Shown here: positions 5,762-38,705 of the stretch, piece by piece
Numbering within the stretch: position 1 is the first letter of the stretch
How the letters are laid out: each line of letters begins with the position of its first letter
Virus genome (UHGV): UHGV-0008253
Origin: a virus
Strand: one strand, 5' to 3'
Length of the DNA: 42,773 bases
The notes under the pieces: generated by a model
Told to the model about the DNA's origin: nothing
Seen by the model: only the letters and a program-made list of their open reading frames with translations
The model's database searches: none
Position numbers and translations under genes: made by a program

Positions 5762-6346
5762 TTATTGTTTGTTTTTTTCGTTCTGGTTGATGACAAATTC
5801 AATGTAACTTTCGATCTTTGCTTTCTCGGTTTCGGGTAACAATGCGTAGCGCGAGCGATCATAGTTGATGGTCGCAGGGTCGTGCGGGTGAATCAGTAAT
5901 TCATAGCCGTGACGCCCGAATGCGGATGCAACATTCTCCAGGGTGGAAATGGAAACGCTGACCTCATTGTTTAACAGGCGGCTGATTGTCACCTGGGCGA
6001 CGCCGGATGCGCGGTGTAGTTTTCCCTGCGTTGAAAGGTCGCGGCTTTCGCTCATCCAGCGTTCCAGGTTGTGAGCCGCCAACTGACCAATGTCGCTAGG
6101 GCCGACAGGCTGAAAACCTTCCTGAGAAAGCGAGCGATCGATATCAAGCCAGTTACGGGGTTTATTGGCGGCAGCTTCAATTTTTCGCGCAACCTGGTCG
6201 CCGATAACCTTCTTGCCAAGAGCCCAGCGGTTTACCAGATTTGCCTGAGTTCCAAGTTTTTCAGCCATCCGCGTCTGAACACCATTGAATTCACGGTCGA
6301 TCAAGTCGTTGAGATTTTGCCTGCGGACGTCCTGGATACTTTTCAT
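5762..6346 (-). CDS. phage repressor, tandem HTH (XRE-type) DNA-binding protein without recognisable S24 autocleavage domain
   Basis: two HTH-like segments (QTRMAEKLGTQANLVNRWALG and ASGVAQVTISRLLNNE); divergent from cro-like gene with operators between. Confidence 0.7.
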   Translation of the reverse strand: MKSIQDVRRQNLNDLIDREFNGVQTRMAEKLGTQANLVNRWALGKKVIGDQVARKIEAAANKPRNWLDIDRSLSQEGFQPVGPSDIGQLAAHNLERWMSESRDLSTQGKLHRASGVAQVTISRLLNNEVSVSISTLENVASAFGRHGYELLIHPHDPATINYDRSRYALLPETEKAKIESYIEFVINQNEKNKQ

Positions 6347-6786: not shown

Positions 6787-6801
6787 GTACCTCAAAGGTA
6801 A
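6787..6801. promoter_or_regulatory. operator-like GTACCtcaaaGGTAA
   Basis: 1 mismatch to TTACC-N5-GGTAA, just after the tR1-like terminator. Confidence 0.45.
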
Positions 6802-15720: not shown

Positions 15721-15797
15721 TGGCGTGGCATGCAGGATTCGAACCTGCGACCAACCGCTTAGAAGGCGGTTGCTCTGTCCGACTGAGCTAATGCCAC
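15721..15797 (-). tRNA. tRNA-Arg (anticodon UCU)
   Basis: cloverleaf read directly: acceptor GTGGCAT/ATGCCAC, D-stem GCTC/GAGC, anticodon stem ACCGC/GCGGT with loop CUUCUAA, T-arm GCAGG-TTCGAAT-CCTGC, discriminator G, CCA. Confidence 0.85.
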
Positions 15798-32704: not shown

Positions 32705-32729
32705 AGGCCGCTTTCGCGGCCTTGTTTTT
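32705..32729 (+). terminator. rho-independent terminator
   Basis: hairpin aggccgc-tttc-gcggcct followed by tgttttta. Confidence 0.7.
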
Positions 32730-32889
32730 AACGAATGCCACCGCCGCCTGGGCGGGAATCCGCAGAACGCCCACCGCAGCGTGAGCCGTCAGCAGCAGTG
32801 TCGCTGTCGTGCTGACAACGACCGGCAAAGGCCTGAGTTGAAGCTACCAGAGACAACAAAACGAACAGTGCAGCAAATGCTTTTTTCAT
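32728..32889 (-). CDS. small secreted peptide (signal peptide MKKAFAALFVLLSLVASTQAFA + about 31-aa Gly/Arg/Cys-containing mature part)
   Basis: textbook signal peptide with AxA site; candidate TTGACG-N16-TATAGA promoter with very short leader. Confidence 0.45.
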   Translation of the reverse strand: MKKAFAALFVLLSLVASTQAFAGRCQHDSDTAADGSRCGGRSADSRPGGGGIR

Positions 32890-32961
32890 TGTGACATTTC
32901 CATCTATAAGCCACCTCAATGTGGCGTCAATGAGTGTAGCACTGACTTTTGTTTCGTCCAC

Positions 32962-32990
32962 AAAAAAGCCCGCAGCGCGGGCTATTCTTT
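32962..32990. terminator. bidirectional rho-independent terminator
   Basis: hairpin gcccgc-agc-gcgggc flanked by A6 upstream and tattctttttt downstream; overlaps stop of 288-aa gene. Confidence 0.7.
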
Positions 32991-33848
32991 TTTGCTATTT
33001 CTTTGATATATATTTCTTCCATTTTTGGTAACACGAATAACGTGCCCCCTGGATTCTACTTTGTTATTTGTTGCTTTATATACTTCAAAATCAAACCATG
33101 ATATATAACTTATTTCGTCAATAGACACCATGATCTCAAGTCCTAGCACTTTCTTTCTGCTAATTCCTCTTATTGCTGCAGTCCGCTTGACCTGTATTTC
33201 TCCTGGATAAGCATTAGTGAATGTGACAGATAAGTTTTCTTTGTTCCTGTATCCTGACATTAAAGGAACAAAAGATATGTGCTGATGCGGACCCTGATTT
33301 TCCGTTGGTTCACCAGAACCATTTATTATTCCAACATACACTTTGTTTGATGATAAAGTAATCAACATTGGTCGTTTAGGATCCGATTCAATAGCATCAA
33401 GCAATAGTAAGTCTAAAGAACCTTGCGAGTAAGTTTTTCGCAGTACTCTGGCCTTCATTGCCTCTGTTTTTTGCTCGTAAATATCACGTTTATAAAAACA
33501 ACCAAGAAGAAAATCTTTCACCCACACAACAGACACATAACACAAAGAGAAGCAAATGGATGTGGCTGAGAGAAGAAGCAGCCACATGTAAATTCTATCT
33601 GTTTCTGGTTTTGATGTTACATTAAAAGTTTCCACCATATCGTGAACTAGGTGAAAATCAGGCCATTTATATTTTATAGCGGCTGCAATTATTACTGATG
33701 CAACAAGGCAATATGTACCTAATGCAGCTACTTTCATATAAAGAAGCTGGCCTTCATGTCGGTATAAACGGAAATAATGATACTGGTTAGCGGTTATCAT
33801 AATATAACCACTAACCAGAATGGGGATAATTAGAAGAGCTAACAACAC
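32982..33848 (-). CDS. membrane-anchored protein of unknown function (3 N-terminal TM helices + about 170-aa soluble domain), low-GC moron
   Basis: hydrophobic segments at residues about 1-20, 39-58, 88-110; markedly AT-rich codon usage versus neighbours; coupled to upstream 69-aa gene. Confidence 0.6.
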   Translation of the reverse strand: MLLALLIIPILVSGYIMITANQYHYFRLYRHEGQLLYMKVAALGTYCLVASVIIAAAIKYKWPDFHLVHDMVETFNVTSKPETDRIYMWLLLLSATSICFSLCYVSVVWVKDFLLGCFYKRDIYEQKTEAMKARVLRKTYSQGSLDLLLLDAIESDPKRPMLITLSSNKVYVGIINGSGEPTENQGPHQHISFVPLMSGYRNKENLSVTFTNAYPGEIQVKRTAAIRGISRKKVLGLEIMVSIDEISYISWFDFEVYKATNNKVESRGHVIRVTKNGRNIYQRNSKKE

Positions 33849-34057
33849 TATTTCCTTACAGTGGCAAGATCCTGTTTAACAATTGCAGCAGCGAGACGAC
33901 GCATCTCCTTAACCTCAGGAAGCTCAGAAATTTGCTGTGATGAGATATATACTCCACCACGCTTGTTAACCTGCGCTGACGCCGGAACTTCTGCATTTTT
34001 TGCCTGAGGGCTGGGTGCATTATCCCTCGTTTTTGTACGAGCGAACCAAAATCCCAT
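33848..34057 (-). CDS. small protein of unknown function, first gene of two-gene cassette
   Basis: ATG at 34057 preceded by strong SD GAGGAGGAG; stop overlaps start of 288-aa gene. Confidence 0.55.
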   Translation of the reverse strand: MGFWFARTKTRDNAPSPQAKNAEVPASAQVNKRGGVYISSQQISELPEVKEMRRLAAAIVKQDLATVRK

Positions 34058-34083
34058 ATCTCCTCCTCATGTAAACCCATGGT

Positions 34084-34098
34084 TTACCTTTAAGGTAA
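34084..34098. promoter_or_regulatory. operator palindrome TTACCtttaaGGTAA at promoter of 69-aa/288-aa cassette
   Basis: perfect TTACC-N5-GGTAA 27 bp upstream of start codon. Confidence 0.6.
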
Positions 34099-34164
34099 TC
34101 TTACGTGAATCTACATCACACCGCAAATGATTATGTCAGAAGCACATCCCTGTGCCGCCGCCCG

Positions 34165-34815
34165 TCAGAAGAACCCTGCCTTGTCGTTGATGTACTCCGC
34201 GTGGGTCTGGATATCACGCAGGCATTTGCTCACACCGACGATGTAGCAGAACATGGTGGTCAGCTCCGCCGCCGCGCCCGATACGTCGTGCCCGTCGTCC
34301 TGTAACTGGTTCAGCAGATTCATCAGCAGTGAGTTCTCCGTCAGGCCGAGAACACCAGACGGCGAATGAATCAGGCTACGGTAGCCGGGCTTCAGTGGGG
34401 CACTGTATTCTTTTTTGTCTTCCAGCTTGATCGCCTCCATAATGGCGGGCATGAAGCCTGACAAGACCTTCTCCACTTTTGTTTCTTGTTGTCTTAAACG
34501 TTTCTCGCATTCAATGAAGTAGCGTCGTACCTGACGACCTTTTTCGTTACGCTCGACCATCGCCAGCTCTTTGGCTGTATCGAGGGTGAGGTGGTAGTCT
34601 TTTGCAGGACGGCCTCTGCCTATTTTTTCCCGAACTTGGGAAATAATCATAAAGTCTTGATTTTCAACGAAACCATATTCAGAAATTCGTTCGACAATCC
34701 ACGAAGCAAATCGCTTACCCACATCGAGGAAAGTGTGTAAATCACGGGCATTAACGAGAAGAGCGGTTTCGTTGGATATAGTGCCGTTGAATACGGGGAT
34801 GAGTTGAGCGTTCAT
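34165..34815 (-). CDS. antirepressor (AntA/Bro-N-like N-terminal domain + C-terminal domain shared with 85-aa protein)
   Basis: N-terminus LIPVFNGTISNETALLVNARDLHTFLDVGKRFASWIVE resembles AntA-type antirepressors; C-terminus about 40 percent identical to 35133-35390 product. Confidence 0.65.
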   Translation of the reverse strand: MNAQLIPVFNGTISNETALLVNARDLHTFLDVGKRFASWIVERISEYGFVENQDFMIISQVREKIGRGRPAKDYHLTLDTAKELAMVERNEKGRQVRRYFIECEKRLRQQETKVEKVLSGFMPAIMEAIKLEDKKEYSAPLKPGYRSLIHSPSGVLGLTENSLLMNLLNQLQDDGHDVSGAAAELTTMFCYIVGVSKCLRDIQTHAEYINDKAGFF

Positions 34816-34973
34816 TATGGCGTCTCCACTTAGCGAATTACATCACCACCGCTGAGACCAATCAGATGGTGGTGAACTGAACGGAGTTGGTCTTACCGGC
34901 CTAAGTGGTACCGGCGTCCTTTCGGACCCCCATTCAGCCCACCATAATTCTGGCATGACTGTGCTATACGCAT

Positions 34974-35095
34974 AAAAAAACCACGTCTGGCGTGGTATGC
35001 GCCACTTAGTAATCCGGGAGACCAATCCCGGCACTGGATTTTGCCAGTGCCCGATTACTATGGCACAAGAGGAGTGCGATGTAAATTTACCTCAA
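34974..35095 (-). ncRNA. candidate small RNA / structured ant leader ending in intrinsic terminator
   Basis: candidate promoter -35 TTGAAA (35124-35129), -10 TTATAT (35102-35107), operator over +1; three stem-loops (ggcactgg/ccagtgcc, ccggga/tcccgg, ccacg/cgtgg) then U7. Confidence 0.4.
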
Positions 35096-35101
35096 AGGTA
35101 A
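35087..35101. promoter_or_regulatory. operator palindrome TTACCtcaaaGGTAA at candidate ant/sRNA promoter
   Basis: perfect TTACC-N5-GGTAA abutting candidate -10. Confidence 0.6.
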
Positions 35102-35132
35102 ATATAAGCACTCCACTTGGTAATTTCAAATC

Positions 35133-35390
35133 TTATCTGGTTTGTTTTCGTAATTGTTCGGCACAATAGTCGAGATGTGTTTGCAGATCCTGCATAGACA
35201 TCTGTGAGCTGGTGACGTAGTTAATCAGTGCAGTCAGTTCGGCAAGTGGGCCATCGACATTAAATCCATCCTTATCGAGATCCCGGAGTAATTTCATCAA
35301 GTGCGATCCCTCCACCAGTGACCTGACGCCTCCCGGCGTGTGAATCCTTTCGGTAAATCCGTCTTCCAGTGGATAGTGATACTGCTGCAT
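35133..35390 (-). CDS. small antirepressor-like protein (stand-alone homolog of Ant C-terminal domain), LexA-box controlled
   Basis: 85 aa from ATG 35390 with GGAGAAG SD; IHTPGGV...LMKLL...DG..V.G.LAELT...DLQTH aligns to Ant C-terminus; LexA box 19 nt upstream. Confidence 0.6.
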   Translation of the reverse strand: MQQYHYPLEDGFTERIHTPGGVRSLVEGSHLMKLLRDLDKDGFNVDGPLAELTALINYVTSSQMSMQDLQTHLDYCAEQLRKQTR

Positions 35391-35409
35391 CTTATCTTCT
35401 CCATGCAAT

Positions 35410-35429
35410 AACTGTATATTTATACAGTA
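35410..35429. promoter_or_regulatory. LexA box (SOS operator) AACTGTATATTTATACAGTA
   Basis: CTGT-N8-ACAG with AT-rich spacer, 18/20 match to consensus TACTGTATATATATACAGTA. Confidence 0.75.
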
Positions 35430-35466: not shown

Positions 35467-35481
35467 TTACCTGAAAGGTAA
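35467..35481. promoter_or_regulatory. operator palindrome TTACCtgaaaGGTAA between LexA-box gene and tailspike
   Basis: perfect TTACC-N5-GGTAA. Confidence 0.6.
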
Positions 35482-35585: not shown

Positions 35586-38500
35586 ATGACGGTCTCAACC
35601 GAAGTTGACCACAACGAATACACCGGTAACGGCGTTACGACATCGTTTCCGTATACTTTTCGAGTTTTCAGAAAATCAGACCTGGTTGTTCAGGTGTCTG
35701 ACCTGAACGGAAACGTAACAGAATTGGTTCTGGATACCGGTTATACGGTAACTGGGGCGGGCACTTATAGTGGCGGTTCTGTGGTTCTTCCGTCTCCGCT
35801 TGCTACTGGATGGCGAATTACGATAGATCGTGTGCTTGATGTAGTGCAGGAGACAGACCTTCGCAATCAGGGAAAATTTTTCCCCGAAGTGCATGAAGAT
35901 GCCTTTGACTACCTGACGATGCTGATCCAGCAATGTTTTGGGTGGTTCAGACGTGCATTGATGAAACCATCTTTGCTTGCAAAATATTACGATGCAAAGC
36001 AAAACAAAATTTCTAACCTTGCAGATCCATCATTTGAGCAGGACGCTGTAAATAATCGCTCAATGCGTAATTATGTCGATGCTGCAATCTCCGGGGTTGT
36101 TGGTGGTTTTGGTTGGTTTATTCAGTATGGTTCTGGGGCTGTGTACCGAACGTTCCAGGATAAAATGCGTGATGCTATTAGCCCCAAAGATTTTGGAGCT
36201 GTTGGTGATGGTATAAATGACGATTCCACTGCAATAAGCGCGTGCCTTGAAGCCTCATCTCCAGGTTATAAAATTGACGGATTAGGGCTTACTTTTAAAG
36301 TATCAACTCTTCCGGATGTCAGTCGATTTAAAAATGCTCGTTTTTTATTTGAGAGAATACCGGGCCAGCCTCTTTTTTATGCTTCTGAAGATTTTATCCA
36401 GGGAGAGTTATTTAAAATTACAGATACACCGTGGTACAACGCCTGGACGCAGGATAAAACGTTTGTATATGACAATGTCATCTATGCGCCTTTTATGGCT
36501 GGAGACCGCCATGGTGTAAATAACCTCCATGTTGCATGGGTTCGCTCAGGAGATGACGGGAAGACCTGGACAACGCCGGAATGGCTTACAGATTTACATG
36601 AAAACTATCCCACAGTTAACTATCACTGCATGAGTATGGGGGTTGTCAGAAATCGCCTTTTTGCTGTAATTGAGACGCGGACCGTGAGCGGAAATAAACT
36701 GCAGGTTGCAGAGTTGTGGGATCGCCCAATGAGTCGCAGCCTTCGCGTTTATGGTGGTATAACGAAAGCAGCAAATCAGCAAGTCGCTTATATTCGCATT
36801 ACTGATCACGGATTATTTGCTGGTGATTTTGTCAACTTCTCAAACTCTGGTGTTACAGGTGTTACCGGGAATATGACGGTGACTACTGTTATTGATAAAA
36901 ATACTTTTACAGTTACGACGCAAAATACCCAGGATGTGGATCAGAATAACGAGGGTAGATACTGGAGTTTTGGTACATCATTTCACTCGTCACCATGGAG
37001 AAAAACCAGTCTTGGAACTATTCCTTCTTTTGTTGACGGAAGCACTCCTGTTACTGAGATTCACAGTTTTGCGACGATTAGCGATAACAGTTTTGCTGTT
37101 GGCTACCATAATGGTGATATTGGTCCACGCGAGCTTGGGATACTCTATTTCTCTGATGCTTTCGGTTCTCCTGGTAGCTTTGTTCGCAGACGCATACCTG
37201 CAGAATATGAGGCGAATGCATCTGAGCCATGTGTAAAATATTATGATGGCATTCTGTATCTGACGACCAGGGGGACATTAAGTACTCAACCCGGTAGTTC
37301 ATTGCACAGAAGCTCTGATTTAGGTACATCATGGAATTCTCTTCGCTTCCCAAATAATGTTCATCACTCAAACCTTCCTTTTGCCAAAGTTGGCGATGAG
37401 CTGATTATTTTTGGCAGTGAGCGCGCATTTGGTGAGTGGGAAGGAGGAGAACCTGATAACCGTTATGCAGGAAACTATCCAAGAACATTTATGACCAGAG
37501 TTAACGTCAATGAGTGGAGTCTGGATAATGTAGAGTGGGTTAATGTTACTGATCAGATTTATCAGGGCGGAATAGTTAACTCTGCGGTTGGTGTTGGTTC
37601 AGTTTGTATCAAAGACAACTGGCTGTACTACATTTTCGGTGGGGAAGACTTTCTAAACCCATGGAGCATAGGGGATAACAACAGAAAATATCCTTATGTT
37701 CACGATGGTCACCCGGCTGATTTGTATTGTTTCAGGGTGAAAATTAAACAGGAAGAATTTGTTTCAAGGGATTTTGTCTACGGAGCCACTCCTAACAGAA
37801 CGCTTCCTACTTTTATGTCGACGTCAGGCGTGAGGACGGTTCCTGTACCCGTTGATTTCACAGATGATGTTGCCGTCCAGTCACTGACTGTCCATGCAGG
37901 TACATCAGGACAAGTTCGCGCGGAAGTCAAACTTGAGGGTAATTACGCCATTATTGCGAAGAAAGTACCGTCTGATGATGTTACCGCTCAGAGATTAATC
38001 GTTAGCGGCGGTGAAACAACGTCTTCAGCAGATGGTGCAATGATAACGTTGCATGGTTCCGGAAGCAGTACTCCACGTCGCGCGGTATATAACGCACTCG
38101 AACATCTTTTTGAGAACGGAGATGTTAAACCTTATCTTGATAATGTAAATGCTCTTGGTGGTCCGGGAAACAGGTTCTCGACAGTTTATCTTGGCTCCAA
38201 TCCTGTGGTTACCAGTGACGGAACATTAAAGACAGAGCCGGTCTCTCCTGACGAAGCATTGCTGGATGCCTGGGGTGACGTCAGGTATATCGCTTATAAA
38301 TGGCTGAACGCTGTCGCTATAAAGGGGGAAGAAGGGGCGAGGATACATCATGGTGTAATCGCGCAGCAACTTCGTGATGTTCTTATTTCTCACGGACTCA
38401 TGGAAGAAGAAAGCACAACATGCCGCTATGCCTTTCTTTGCTATGACGATTATCCCGCAGTATATGATGACGTCATTACTGGCCAAAGGGAAATGCCGCT

Positions 38501-38705
38501 GACTGATAATGACGGGAGCATCATTGTTGATGAGGATGATAATCCAGTGATGGTAATAGAAGACATCATTGAGCGCGTTGAAATAACGCCAGCAGGATCT
38601 AGATGGGGGGTCAGACCTGATCTCTTATTCTATATCGAGGCAGCATGGCAGCGCAGAGAAATGGATAAGATAAAAGAGCGGGTTCAGTCTCTGGAAGAAC
38701 GTTAA
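35586..38705 (+). CDS. tailspike / receptor-binding depolymerase with pectate-lyase-like beta-helix and C-terminal intramolecular chaperone (S74-like) domain
   Basis: ISPKDFGAVGDGINDDSTAISA motif typical of beta-helix tailspikes; C-terminus SDGTLK...IHHGVIAQQLRDV...AAWQRREMDKIKERVQSLEER resembles autoproteolytic chaperone domains. Confidence 0.8.
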   Translation: MTVSTEVDHNEYTGNGVTTSFPYTFRVFRKSDLVVQVSDLNGNVTELVLDTGYTVTGAGTYSGGSVVLPSPLATGWRITIDRVLDVVQETDLRNQGKFFPEVHEDAFDYLTMLIQQCFGWFRRALMKPSLLAKYYDAKQNKISNLADPSFEQDAVNNRSMRNYVDAAISGVVGGFGWFIQYGSGAVYRTFQDKMRDAISPKDFGAVGDGINDDSTAISACLEASSPGYKIDGLGLTFKVSTLPDVSRFKNARFLFERIPGQPLFYASEDFIQGELFKITDTPWYNAWTQDKTFVYDNVIYAPFMAGDRHGVNNLHVAWVRSGDDGKTWTTPEWLTDLHENYPTVNYHCMSMGVVRNRLFAVIETRTVSGNKLQVAELWDRPMSRSLRVYGGITKAANQQVAYIRITDHGLFAGDFVNFSNSGVTGVTGNMTVTTVIDKNTFTVTTQNTQDVDQNNEGRYWSFGTSFHSSPWRKTSLGTIPSFVDGSTPVTEIHSFATISDNSFAVGYHNGDIGPRELGILYFSDAFGSPGSFVRRRIPAEYEANASEPCVKYYDGILYLTTRGTLSTQPGSSLHRSSDLGTSWNSLRFPNNVHHSNLPFAKVGDELIIFGSERAFGEWEGGEPDNRYAGNYPRTFMTRVNVNEWSLDNVEWVNVTDQIYQGGIVNSAVGVGSVCIKDNWLYYIFGGEDFLNPWSIGDNNRKYPYVHDGHPADLYCFRVKIKQEEFVSRDFVYGATPNRTLPTFMSTSGVRTVPVPVDFTDDVAVQSLTVHAGTSGQVRAEVKLEGNYAIIAKKVPSDDVTAQRLIVSGGETTSSADGAMITLHGSGSSTPRRAVYNALEHLFENGDVKPYLDNVNALGGPGNRFSTVYLGSNPVVTSDGTLKTEPVSPDEALLDAWGDVRYIAYKWLNAVAIKGEEGARIHHGVIAQQLRDVLISHGLMEEESTTCRYAFLCYDDYPAVYDDVITGQREMPLTDNDGSIIVDEDDNPVMVIEDIIERVEITPAGSRWGVRPDLLFYIEAAWQRREMDKIKERVQSLEER

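What the first reader, a model, noticed from the sequence alone, without database searches (positions are those of the whole stretch)
32982..34098. Operator-controlled, low-GC two-gene cassette encoding a 69-aa protein and a 288-aa three-TM membrane protein
This minus-strand unit has its own promoter-proximal TTACC-N5-GGTAA palindrome, a very strong SD (GAGGAGGAG), translational coupling between the two genes and its own terminator. The 288-aa gene is markedly AT-rich compared with the surrounding structural genes, which suggests horizontal acquisition. It occupies the slot between ejection proteins and tailspike where P22-type phages carry exclusion and immunity-I functions. I recognise no family for either protein. 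This is my best candidate for an undescribed exclusion, abortive-infection or host-modifying module, but function is entirely unassigned.
Basis: partly seen in the sequence, partly recalled or inferred. Interest (0 to 1): 0.7.

Follow-up and report, generated by a model that had tools for sequence, protein, structure and literature searches.

The report
Membrane Sm-barrel two-gene prophage cassette
A two-gene cassette in an E. coli prophage (a 69-aa soluble protein plus a 288-aa inner-membrane protein with an Hfq/Sm-like barrel facing the cytoplasm) belongs to a large, unnamed family that recurs in the accessory and anti-phage hotspots of many mobile elements, which makes it a credible but untested candidate for a new phage-conflict system.

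Summary
Two translationally coupled minus-strand ORFs (69 aa and 288 aa), a strong SD, a 15-bp perfect palindrome at the promoter, a terminator and low GC (36% against 49%) are all present.

Three corrections apply:
- The phage is epsilon15-like (Uetakevirus), not P22-like.
- The promoter-operator and terminator belong to a conserved backbone "socket" that holds other cargo in related prophages.
- The palindrome is one of 14 copies of a phage-wide operator that cluster at the immunity region. The cassette is therefore probably repressed in stable lysogens. It lies at the 3' end of a P1-type C4/IsrK-ant operon.

The gene pair is conserved from Enterobacterales to Acidobacteria (2,340 50%-identity clusters). 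It sits in P2 gpA-Q defence hotspots, at int-att junctions, in Mu-like prophages and ICEs, and beside CBASS.

Best reading is an uncharacterised MGE-borne conflict module (abortive infection, exclusion or TA-like). Function is untested.

The parts
32961..32983 (-). Intrinsic terminator (stem 32983-32967, T-run 32966-32961), overlapping the stop codon of the 288-aa gene. It is part of the conserved backbone flank and is bidirectional in shape.
   Evidence: Terminator scan. RNA fold -17.6 kcal/mol, z = -2.4. Flank homology to TL-2011b and phiv142-3 extends to 32990-32992.
32982..33848 (-). 288-aa inner-membrane protein with three N-terminal TM helices (about 1-19, 40-58, 90-108), a linker, and a cytoplasmic basic Sm/Hfq-like beta-barrel (about 145-262). 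The barrel carries a variable insertion at 216-238.
33853..33857 (-). Internal SD (AAGGA) for the 288-aa gene, inside the end of the 69-aa gene. The stop and start overlap as TAGTG at 33846-33850.
   Evidence: Sequence. The same 1-nt overlap occurs in SEN5, Klebsiella phage ST15-OXA48phi14.1 and E. coli P2-like copies.
33848..34057 (-). 69-aa basic (pI 10.4) soluble partner. It has a disordered N-tail, a beta-hairpin (about 29-37, conserved G34/G35) and a long C-terminal helix (47-68).
   Evidence: ORF. AF2. Conserved upstream partner in 56/62 loci by HMM; four of the other six carry a diverged copy and two have no upstream sequence because the contig ends there. dN/dS 0-0.23.
34060..34068 (-). 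Shine-Dalgarno GAGGAGGAG for the 69-aa gene.
   Evidence: Sequence. The same GAGGAGGAG lies upstream of the Citrobacter and Pectobacterium homologues.
34084..34098 (.). Operator: perfect 15-bp palindrome TTACCTTTAAGGTAA, abutting the putative -10. It is one of 14 TTACC-N5-GGTAA sites in the phage.
   Evidence: 8 sites against 0.06 expected; 14 against 0.85. The homology break with phiv142-3 falls exactly here. Arms are conserved in Symbiopectobacterium.
34098..34126 (-). Putative weak sigma-70 promoter TTGCGG (34126-34121) - 17 nt - TAAGAT (34103-34098). It has the same layout as the ant promoter and the PL-like promoter, with the operator directly after the -10.
   Evidence: Read from the sequence. 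It falls below the scanner's threshold. Relatives have TTGCAG-17-TACTAT at the same place.
34165..34850 (-). Context: Bro-N/AntA antirepressor gene directly upstream. No terminator lies between its stop and the cassette, so read-through is possible.
   Evidence: Pfam AntA 7e-28. RefSeq annotation. Terminator scan.
34865..35050 (-). Context: C4 antisense RNA (34865-34949) and IsrK sRNA (34974-35050), the P1-type immI leader of the ant operon.
   Evidence: Rfam, 61.2 and 67.7 bits, both above gathering thresholds.
35087..35129 (-). Context: ant-operon promoter TTGAAA-17-TATATT, followed immediately by a copy of the operator (35087-35101).

Best explanation
The cassette is a member of a widespread, unnamed two-gene module carried by mobile elements. 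It most likely acts in phage-phage or phage-host conflict, as abortive infection or superinfection exclusion.

Shown:
- The 288-aa protein has three TM helices.
- Its C-terminal basic domain has the Sm/Hfq fold.
- The 69-aa partner is soluble and has no TM segment or signal peptide.
- The two genes are always adjacent and usually translationally coupled.
- The pair sits in accessory or defence hotspots of at least five unrelated temperate-phage types, and also in ICEs and defence islands.

Inferred:
- The topology is N-out/C-in, so the Sm domain and the partner are both cytoplasmic.
- The Sm domains assemble into a 6-7-membered ring under the membrane, as Sm, LSm and Hfq proteins do. This would gather 18-21 TM helices.
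- The ring binds single-stranded nucleic acid or a phage product.
- The small partner, through its beta-hairpin and helix, docks on the barrel and holds the complex inactive, or acts as the adaptor.
- On triggering, the TM bundle (highly conserved TM1 and cytoplasmic loop 1) perturbs the membrane or blocks genome entry, which stops the competing phage.

In this prophage the module is plugged into a backbone expression socket. The socket consists of an immunity-operator-controlled promoter, its position downstream of the C4/IsrK-ant operon, and a shared terminator. The module is therefore predicted to be silent in a stable lysogen and switched on with ant when repression is absent, that is, on infection or induction.
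For: Gene pair:
- A small-ORF HMM hit lies directly upstream in 56/62 loci. Of the other six, two have no upstream sequence because the contig ends there, and four carry a diverged small ORF with the same G-x-V-x-V hairpin.
- The pair spans Gamma-, Beta- and Alphaproteobacteria and Acidobacteria.
- 2,340 50%-identity clusters match at E<=1e-3, and 914 at E<=1e-10.

Fold:
- Conserved blocks are TM1, loop 1 and the barrel core (K169, Y171, G173, S198-G199-Y200-R201, Y214).

Hotspot contexts:
- Between gpA and portal Q in the P2-like phages Klebsiella ST15-OXA48phi14.1 and SEN4/5, and in E. coli P2-like prophages. This is the validated P2 defence hotspot (PMC9122126). Neighbours there are bSEFIR (PADLOC 6.9e-103), TIR, PIN_12, DUF262/DUF1524 and SieB.
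- Between int and attP in phiES15 and in Citrobacter, Pectobacterium and Klebsiella prophages.
- In a Mu-like prophage after Mor.
- Directly after a type III CBASS.
- In ICE/IME contexts with Mrr, ParE and E2/ThiF/JAB genes.

This slot:
- The backbone flank is present in 422-537 E. coli genomes, but the cassette in only 28-30.
- Alternative cargo includes a YafO-family toxin pair and DUF4760. DUF4760 also appears as a cargo in the P2-hotspot listings of PMC9122126 Table S5.

Functional analogues:
- AbiP and PdpSau are membrane-anchored proteins with a cytosolic, basic, nucleic-acid-binding barrel that cause abortive infection (PMC13064643, PMC10127798).
Against: - There is no experimental phenotype.
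- No homology was found to any PADLOC-2023 defence protein, for this protein, 56 relatives or the P2-type copies.
- None of the other cargos of this slot is a recognised defence protein.
- Some distant members sit among ordinary chromosomal genes, such as an HD-domain protein, a symporter, a histidine kinase and a tRNA deaminase.
- The immunity operator and the C4-controlled operon predict silence in the lysogen, which is atypical for prophage defence morons.
- Ring formation, nucleic-acid binding and partner docking are all inferred. The canonical Sm1/Sm2 sequence motifs are not detectable, and there is no Pfam LSM or Hfq hit.
Confidence: 0.5

Rival explanations
1. It is a toxin-antitoxin or addiction module without a dedicated anti-phage role. 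The 288-aa membrane protein is the toxin and the upstream 69-aa protein is its labile antitoxin, which stabilises the prophage or ICE.
For: - The layout is classic: small gene first, overlapping the larger gene.
- The same slot in TL-2011b and many E. coli prophages carries a YafO-family toxin with a small upstream ORF.
- A ParE TA module lies next to the Novosphingobium copy.
- The pair is present on many MGE types.
Against: - The small protein has no recognisable antitoxin DNA-binding fold or family.
- The hotspot neighbours are mostly immune systems rather than stability genes.
- TA and abortive-infection functions are not mutually exclusive.
Confidence: 0.2
2. It is a non-lethal superinfection-exclusion device at the inner membrane, SieA-like in function. 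The TM domain and cytoplasmic ring would intercept the DNA-ejection conduit or the incoming genome of related podoviruses.
For: - It is a three-TM inner-membrane protein in the position analogous to sieA, between the internal/ejection-type genes and the tailspike, next to ant.
- SieA is a 3-TM inner-membrane protein that blocks injection (PMC10883804).
- Expression with ant early after infection would suit exclusion during lytic growth.
Against: - No sequence relationship to SieA was found (hhalign probability 0.6%; BLASTP E = 3.3).
- The SieA motif FxRYPxEAxxFNK is absent.
- The family occurs in phages with entirely different injection machinery (P2, Mu, sipho) and in ICEs and chromosomes. 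This argues against a target specific to one ejection apparatus.
Confidence: 0.15
3. It is a phage-beneficial early function rather than defence. Examples would be membrane or RNA-metabolism takeover, a membrane-tethered Hfq-like sink for sRNAs, or an anti-defence factor, expressed on derepression.
For: - The immunity operator lies at the promoter, and the cassette is placed at the end of the C4/IsrK-ant operon.
- The domain has the Hfq-like fold.
Against: - The cassette is present in only about 7% of otherwise similar Uetakevirus prophages, so it is dispensable.
- It occurs in non-phage elements next to CBASS.
- The operator is a backbone feature that also serves unrelated cargo.
Confidence: 0.1
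4. It is a distant MscS-like mechanosensitive or other housekeeping channel (3 TM plus an Sm-like beta domain) with no conflict role.
For: - The architecture resembles MscS, with three TM helices followed by an Sm-like beta domain. This comparison rests on established knowledge of MscS.
- Some members are in ordinary chromosomal neighbourhoods.
Against: - No Pfam MS_channel hit in the protein or in 56 relatives.
- The MscS C-terminal alpha/beta domain is absent.
- The obligatory small partner and the MGE and hotspot distribution do not fit a housekeeping channel.
Confidence: 0.03

Closest known systems
AbiP/AbiC (Lactococcus) and PdpSau (S. aureus prophage) abortive-infection proteins
   Same: - An N-terminal membrane anchor plus a positively charged cytosolic small beta-barrel thought to bind nucleic acid.
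- MGE- or prophage-borne accessory genes.
- AbiP binds RNA and ssDNA, and needs both domains for its abortive-infection phenotype (PMC13064643, PMC10127798).
   Different: - Those are single-gene systems with 1-2 TM helices and an OB-like or unassigned domain, found in Firmicutes.
- This one has 3 TM helices, an Sm/Hfq-fold barrel and an obligatory small partner, and is found in Proteobacteria and Acidobacteria.
- No sequence hit to AbiC models. AbiP itself could not be compared.
P22 SieA superinfection exclusion protein
   Same: - A three-TM inner-membrane protein encoded on the minus strand between the ejection-protein genes and the tailspike, beside an immI region.
   Different: - SieA is 162-164 aa with no cytoplasmic barrel and no partner gene.
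- It is constitutively expressed in lysogens and restricted to P22-like prophages.
- No homology was found.
Sm/LSm/Hfq ring proteins and WYL sensor domains of defence regulators (BrxR, CapW, DriD)
   Same: - WYL and Sm barrels sense ssDNA or RNA ligands in immune regulation.
   Different: - Those are soluble proteins.
- This barrel is fused to a 3-TM domain, has a 23-residue variable insertion before beta5, and lacks the Sm1/Sm2 or WYL sequence signatures.
Lambda RexAB and similar two-gene systems with a membrane effector
   Same: - A prophage-borne two-component logic, pairing a cytoplasmic partner with a polytopic inner-membrane protein thought to depolarise the cell. This rests on established knowledge of Rex.
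   Different: - No sequence or fold relationship was detected.
- RexA is large (279 aa) whereas the partner here is 69 aa.
- Rex is co-transcribed with cI in lysogens, whereas this cassette carries an immunity operator.
P2 gpA-Q hotspot cargos (Rousset et al. 2022)
   Same: - Homologous pairs, such as WP_000094764 + WP_000212611, are listed among E. coli P2 hotspot loci. They occur together with TIR, PIN_12, DUF262/DUF1524 and SieB genes.
   Different: - They are listed there only as 'hypothetical + hypothetical'.
- Their accessions do not appear in the table of systems tested.

Membership tests
P22 SieA family | Sequence homology to SieA types A-C, including the cytoplasmic motif FxRYPxEAxxFNK | tested here: not met
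   hhalign of the 56-sequence profile against P22 SieA gives probability 0.6%. BLASTP gives E = 3.3. The motif is not present in the 288-aa sequence.
P22 SieA family | Three-TM inner-membrane protein encoded between the ejection-protein genes and the tailspike of a P22-like prophage | tested here: inconclusive
   Three TM helices and an analogous position are found. However, the host phage is a Uetakevirus, and the protein carries an extra 170-aa cytoplasmic domain.
Sm/LSm/Hfq fold superfamily | N-terminal helix followed by a strongly bent five-stranded antiparallel barrel | tested here: met
   [not shown]
Sm/LSm/Hfq fold superfamily | Sm1/Sm2 sequence motifs, or a profile match to LSM or Hfq families | tested here: not met
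   No Pfam LSM or Hfq hit for the protein or for 56 relatives. The profile search against PDB sequences gives nothing significant.
Sm/LSm/Hfq fold superfamily | Hexameric or heptameric ring assembly and binding of single-stranded RNA or DNA | not testable with these tools
   Only monomer prediction was available. The basic pI of 9.7 for the C-terminal part is merely compatible with nucleic-acid binding.
AbiC/AbiP group | Sequence or profile similarity to AbiC or AbiP | tested here: not met
   No hit to the Pfam or PADLOC AbiC models.
AbiC/AbiP group | Membrane anchor plus cytosolic nucleic-acid-binding domain, both required for abortive infection | not testable with these tools
   The architecture is analogous. 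The activity needs experiments.
Known anti-phage systems (PADLOC-DB 2.0, 2023) | HMM match to any component of a described or candidate system | tested here: not met
   No hit for either protein, for 56 family members, or for the P2-type, SEN5 and phiES15 copies. Releases after 2023 could not be checked.
Type II toxin-antitoxin module | Small upstream gene overlapping a larger downstream gene on an MGE | tested here: met
   The genes overlap by 1 nt (TAGTG). The same arrangement recurs across the family.
Type II toxin-antitoxin module | Recognisable antitoxin fold (RHH, AbrB, HTH, Phd) and toxicity neutralised by the partner | tested here: inconclusive
   No Pfam or PDB-profile match for the small protein. 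The only PDB hits are repeat-summed hairpin artefacts. AF2 shows a hairpin plus helices. Toxicity is not testable here.
MscS-like channels | Pfam MS_channel match, or structural match of TM3 and the beta domain plus the C-terminal alpha/beta domain | tested here: not met
   [not shown]
DUF2207 (label on one RefSeq homologue) | Score above the Pfam gathering threshold | tested here: not met
   DUF2207_C scores 16 bits against a cut-off of 33, on the TM region only, in the P2-type homologue. The window protein has no hit.

The most novel reading that the evidence does not exclude
This would be a new class of bacterial and prophage immune effector, built around a membrane-embedded Sm ring.

- Six or seven copies of the 3-TM protein would form a ring. 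The cytoplasmic Hfq-like face would capture phage single-stranded nucleic acid or a phage protein at the inner membrane, for example during genome entry or early transcription.
- The conserved 60-90-aa partner would act as the latch.
- Ligand binding would open or collapse the 18-21-helix bundle, depolarising the cell or blocking DNA entry.

This would be the first Sm/Hfq-fold sensor coupled directly to a membrane effector. It would be spread over more than 2,000 sequence clusters in phages, ICEs and defence islands.
Probability: 0.2. Interest if true: 0.8.

Novelty: new variant of a known kind. Interest (0 to 1): 0.6.

Why it matters
If the module is active, it would add a widespread two-gene system with a previously unseen architecture, a three-helix membrane domain fused to an Sm/Hfq barrel with a mandatory mini-partner, to the catalogue of phage-conflict systems.

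It would also assign a role to a gene pair that is listed only as 'hypothetical + hypothetical' in the P2 defence-hotspot tables (PMC9122126 Table S5).

The locus shows a reusable 'expression socket' in epsilon15-like prophages. An immunity-operator promoter and a shared terminator flank interchangeable cargo at the end of a P1-type C4-ant operon. This is a convenient natural context for finding further accessory or defence genes and for studying how cargo is wired into the lysis-lysogeny switch.

Tried and rejected
- **Curated family searches of both proteins.** Pfam, NCBIfam and PADLOC gave nothing. PHROGs returned only families of unknown function.
- **Profile search of the 56-sequence family against PDB sequences.** Only insignificant hits.
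- **Profile of the small protein against PDB.** The apparent 'Pizza' and PknD beta-propeller hits are sums of many 5-6-bit hairpin matches, each with an individual E above 100. I rejected them as artefacts.
- **AFDB50 fold search.** The library was not available.
- **BFVD viral fold search.** Only unannotated Sm-like phage proteins.
- **SieA homology.** Rejected.
- **MscS membership.** Rejected.
- **Rst_2TM_1TM_TIR and Rst_3HP identity of the P2-hotspot copies.** Rejected, because PADLOC finds only bSEFIR on the neighbouring gene.
- **DUF2207 label.** Sub-threshold.
- **PADLOC scan of the alternative cargos of the slot.** No hits, so the slot itself cannot be called a validated defence hotspot.
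- **Literature searches.** Searches by accession, by 'Sm-like + anti-phage/transmembrane' and by Uetakevirus hotspot found no characterisation.
- **The search for related loci with the broad alignment.** It failed for lack of conserved stretches, so I used the narrower alignment.
Full report
**1. What is in the sequence**

On the minus strand a 69-aa ORF (33848-34057) is followed by a 288-aa ORF (32982-33848).
- The TAG stop of the first overlaps the GTG start of the second by one base. AAGGA lies 4 nt upstream of that start.
- GAGGAGGAG sits 2 nt before the first ATG.
- A GC-rich hairpin plus T6 at 32983-32961 overlaps the stop of the large gene. It folds at -17.6 kcal/mol, z = -2.4.
- The large ORF has 36.1% GC and GC3 of 29%. 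The window has 48.7% GC and the neighbouring ant gene 50%.
- Hydropathy gives three TM segments at 1-19, 40-58 and 90-108. The charge distribution fits an N-out/C-in topology, and the C-terminal 169 residues have pI 9.7.
- Both ORFs are under purifying selection against the 90%- and 76%-identical copies. dN/dS is 0.095 for the large gene and 0-0.23 for the small gene.

**2.

The flanks are 96-99% identical to Uetakevirus (epsilon15-like) phages such as phiv142-3 and TL-2011b. The tailspike downstream is an endosialidase.

Homology with these phages stops at 32990-32992, just past the terminator. It resumes at 34083, exactly at the palindrome, in phiv142-3, and at 34142 in TL-2011b. Between these points the relatives carry other cargo:
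- a YafO-family toxin plus a 59-aa ORF in TL-2011b;
- two tiny ORFs in phiv142-3;
- DUF2335 plus a 108-aa ORF, DUF4760, or a 147-aa plus a 55-aa ORF in E. coli prophages.

The left flank is found in 422-537 of 5,426 complete E. coli genomes, but the cassette in only 28-30. The terminator and the promoter-operator are therefore parts of a conserved socket with exchangeable cargo.

**3. The palindrome**

TTACCTTTAAGGTAA (34084-34098) is a perfect 15-mer.
- Allowing 2 mismatches, there are 8 copies in the window against 0.06 expected.
- TTACC-N5-GGTAA with at most 1 mismatch occurs 14 times against 0.85 expected.

The sites lie at the following places:
- upstream of int (136);
- flanking a strong leftward TTGACA-16-TAATTA promoter (5628, 5690);
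- clustered in the divergent region between a 194-aa HTH_3 repressor-like gene (5762-6346, minus strand) and a 76-aa gene (6402, 6450, plus a half-site);
- further at 6787, 8733/8795, 16120, 35087 and 35467.

At three consecutive minus-strand units the site directly follows a -10 element. These units are the 85-aa gene, ant (TTGAAA-17-TATATT) and the cassette (TTGCGG-17-TAAGAT).

The motif occupies the equivalent places in TL-2011b and phiv142-3. It is absent upstream of homologous cassettes in other phage types.

I infer that it is the operator of the phage's immunity repressor and/or its Cro-like protein. On that reading the cassette is wired into the lysis-lysogeny switch and is probably repressed in a stable lysogen.

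**4. The operon upstream**

Rfam finds IsrK (34974-35050) and C4 antisense RNA (34865-34949) between the operator-controlled promoter and the Bro-N/AntA antirepressor gene. This is a P1-type immI arrangement (c4-icd-ant, from established knowledge of P1), not the mnt-arc-ant arrangement of P22.

No terminator separates the ant stop codon (34165) from the cassette. Read-through from the ant operon is therefore possible in addition to the weak internal promoter.

**5. The proteins**

Neither protein matches Pfam, NCBIfam or PADLOC. PHROGs places them in families 3630 and 5739, both of unknown function.

The large protein:
- A word-indexed search found only 28 relatives.
- An exhaustive profile search found 2,340 representative clusters at E<=1e-3, and 914 at E<=1e-10. 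Almost all are 240-340 aa.
- AF2 (pLDDT 72.7) predicts N-terminal helices, then a helix followed by a five-stranded barrel.
- Conservation across 56 diverse members is concentrated in TM1, the first cytoplasmic loop (R30, G33, Q34, L36, Y37) and the barrel core (K169, Y171, G173, P181, E183, P195, S198-G199-Y200-R201, Y214, F252). The periplasmic loop, TM3, the linker, a 23-residue insertion and the tail are variable.

The small protein is basic (pI 10.4). It has a disordered N-tail, a hairpin and a long helix.

**6. The pair is the unit**

A small ORF with the same hairpin-helix motif lies immediately upstream of the large gene in Providencia, Citrobacter, Pectobacterium, Arsenophonus, Yersinia, Brachymonas, Bowmanella and two Acidobacteria.

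Over all 62 fetched loci, 56 have a small-protein HMM hit directly upstream. Two end at the contig edge. Four carry a diverged small ORF with the same G-x-V-x-V hairpin.

**7. Where the pair lives**

- Between int and attP or the prophage end: phiES15 and Citrobacter, Pectobacterium and Klebsiella prophages.
- Between gpA and portal Q of P2-like phages: Klebsiella ST15-OXA48phi14.1 next to a bSEFIR gene (PADLOC 6.9e-103), E. coli prophages next to TIR genes, and SEN4/5, where it follows gpA at the end of the circular record. The gpA-Q interval is the experimentally validated P2 defence hotspot (PMC9122126).
- In that paper's Table S5 the E. coli pair WP_000094764 + WP_000212611 is listed as 'hypothetical + hypothetical'. 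It occurs together with PIN_12, DUF262/DUF1524 and SieB genes. Its accessions are absent from the table of tested systems.
- A Shewanella Mu-like prophage, after Mor and DUF4145.
- A Vibrio mobilisable element.
- A Pseudomonas ICE with E2/ThiF/JAB genes.
- Novosphingobium, beside Mrr, ParE and a transposase.
- Asticcacaulis, immediately after a type III CBASS operon.
- Some distant members lie among ordinary genes.
- IMG/VR holds 33 further viral loci.

**8. Interpretation**

The repeated capture of the same pair by unrelated temperate phages and ICEs points to an MGE-borne conflict module. The pair always sits in accessory positions and often beside immune systems.

The architecture is a polytopic membrane domain plus a basic cytoplasmic small barrel. 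It parallels the abortive-infection proteins AbiP/AbiC and PdpSau and, by position only, P22 SieA. No homology to SieA exists.

I propose a membrane-tethered Sm ring that senses a nucleic acid or a phage product and acts through its TM bundle, with the small protein as latch or adaptor. Ring formation, ligand binding, partner docking and the phenotype are all inferred.

The main rivals are:
- a pure TA or addiction module;
- non-lethal injection blocking;
- an early phage-beneficial function;
- much less likely, an MscS-like channel.

**9. Limits**

- PADLOC dates from 2023, and the literature corpus is open-access only.
- The AFDB fold library was unavailable.
- No complex prediction was possible.
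- None of the slot's alternative cargos is a recognised defence protein. The 'hotspot' argument therefore rests on the P2, CBASS and ICE contexts rather than on this slot itself.

Noticed in passing
window 136, 5628, 5690, 6402, 6450, 6787, 8733, 8795, 12955, 12973, 16120, 34084, 35087, 35467: A phage-wide operator, TTACC-N5-GGTAA, occurs 14 times against 0.85 expected. It sits in front of most transcription units and clusters in the divergent region between the HTH_3 repressor-like gene (5762-6346, minus strand) and a 76-aa cro-like gene. It is probably the immunity operator of this Uetakevirus lineage. It is also present at equivalent sites in TL-2011b and phiv142-3. The binding protein was not identified.
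   Followed up: partly
window 34865-34949 (-) and 34974-35050 (-): C4 antisense RNA (61 bits) and IsrK sRNA (68 bits) lie between an operator-controlled promoter (35101-35129) and the Bro-N antirepressor gene. This is a P1/P7-type immI (c4-icd-ant) module in an epsilon15-like prophage.
   Followed up: partly
window 32990-34142; loci L010, L011, L060-L062: A variable cargo socket lies between a conserved terminator and the antirepressor gene. Alternative contents are a YafO-family toxin plus a 59-aa ORF, DUF2335 plus a 108-aa ORF, DUF4760, a 147-aa plus a 55-aa ORF, or two tiny ORFs. None is in PADLOC. DUF4760 also appears as a cargo in the P2-hotspot listings of PMC9122126 Table S5.
   Followed up: partly
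window 35163-35420 (-) against 34165-34815 (-): The 85-aa gene upstream of the ant operon is a stand-alone paralogue of the C-terminal domain of the antirepressor (shared PHROGs 450 and 15539). It has its own copy of the operator at 35467. It may modulate or mimic Ant.
   Followed up: no
window 33848-34057 against 32982-33848, compared with L002: The cassette shows mosaic divergence between this window and E. coli FDAARGOS_1257. The small gene has dS 0.065 and an identical protein, whereas the large gene has dS 0.51. This suggests recombinational replacement of the large gene alone.
   Followed up: no
window 35586-38705 (+): The tailspike is a 1,039-aa endosialidase (beta-propeller catalytic domain in the RefSeq annotation of the near-identical prophage). 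It implies specificity for K1 capsule in an epsilon15-like temperate phage.
   Followed up: no
window 32728-32889 (-): A conserved backbone gene just downstream of the cassette encodes a 53-aa protein with an apparent signal peptide (MKKAFAALFVLLSLVASTQAFA), PHROG 14503 'membrane associated protein, moron'. The protein WP_000708858 is identical across the four sampled E. coli prophages that have different cargo.
   Followed up: no
window 15721-15797 (-): A tRNA-Arg(TCT) gene sits inside the prophage, just upstream of the portal and late region.
   Followed up: no
L073 6385-7404; L025 4856-6495: In P2-like prophages the homologous pair is followed by a second small system, either a 138-aa protein plus a 200-aa TIR_2 protein (E. 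coli O157:H16) or a 69-aa ORF plus a 477-aa bSEFIR protein (Klebsiella phage). I did not test whether these act together with the pair.
   Followed up: no
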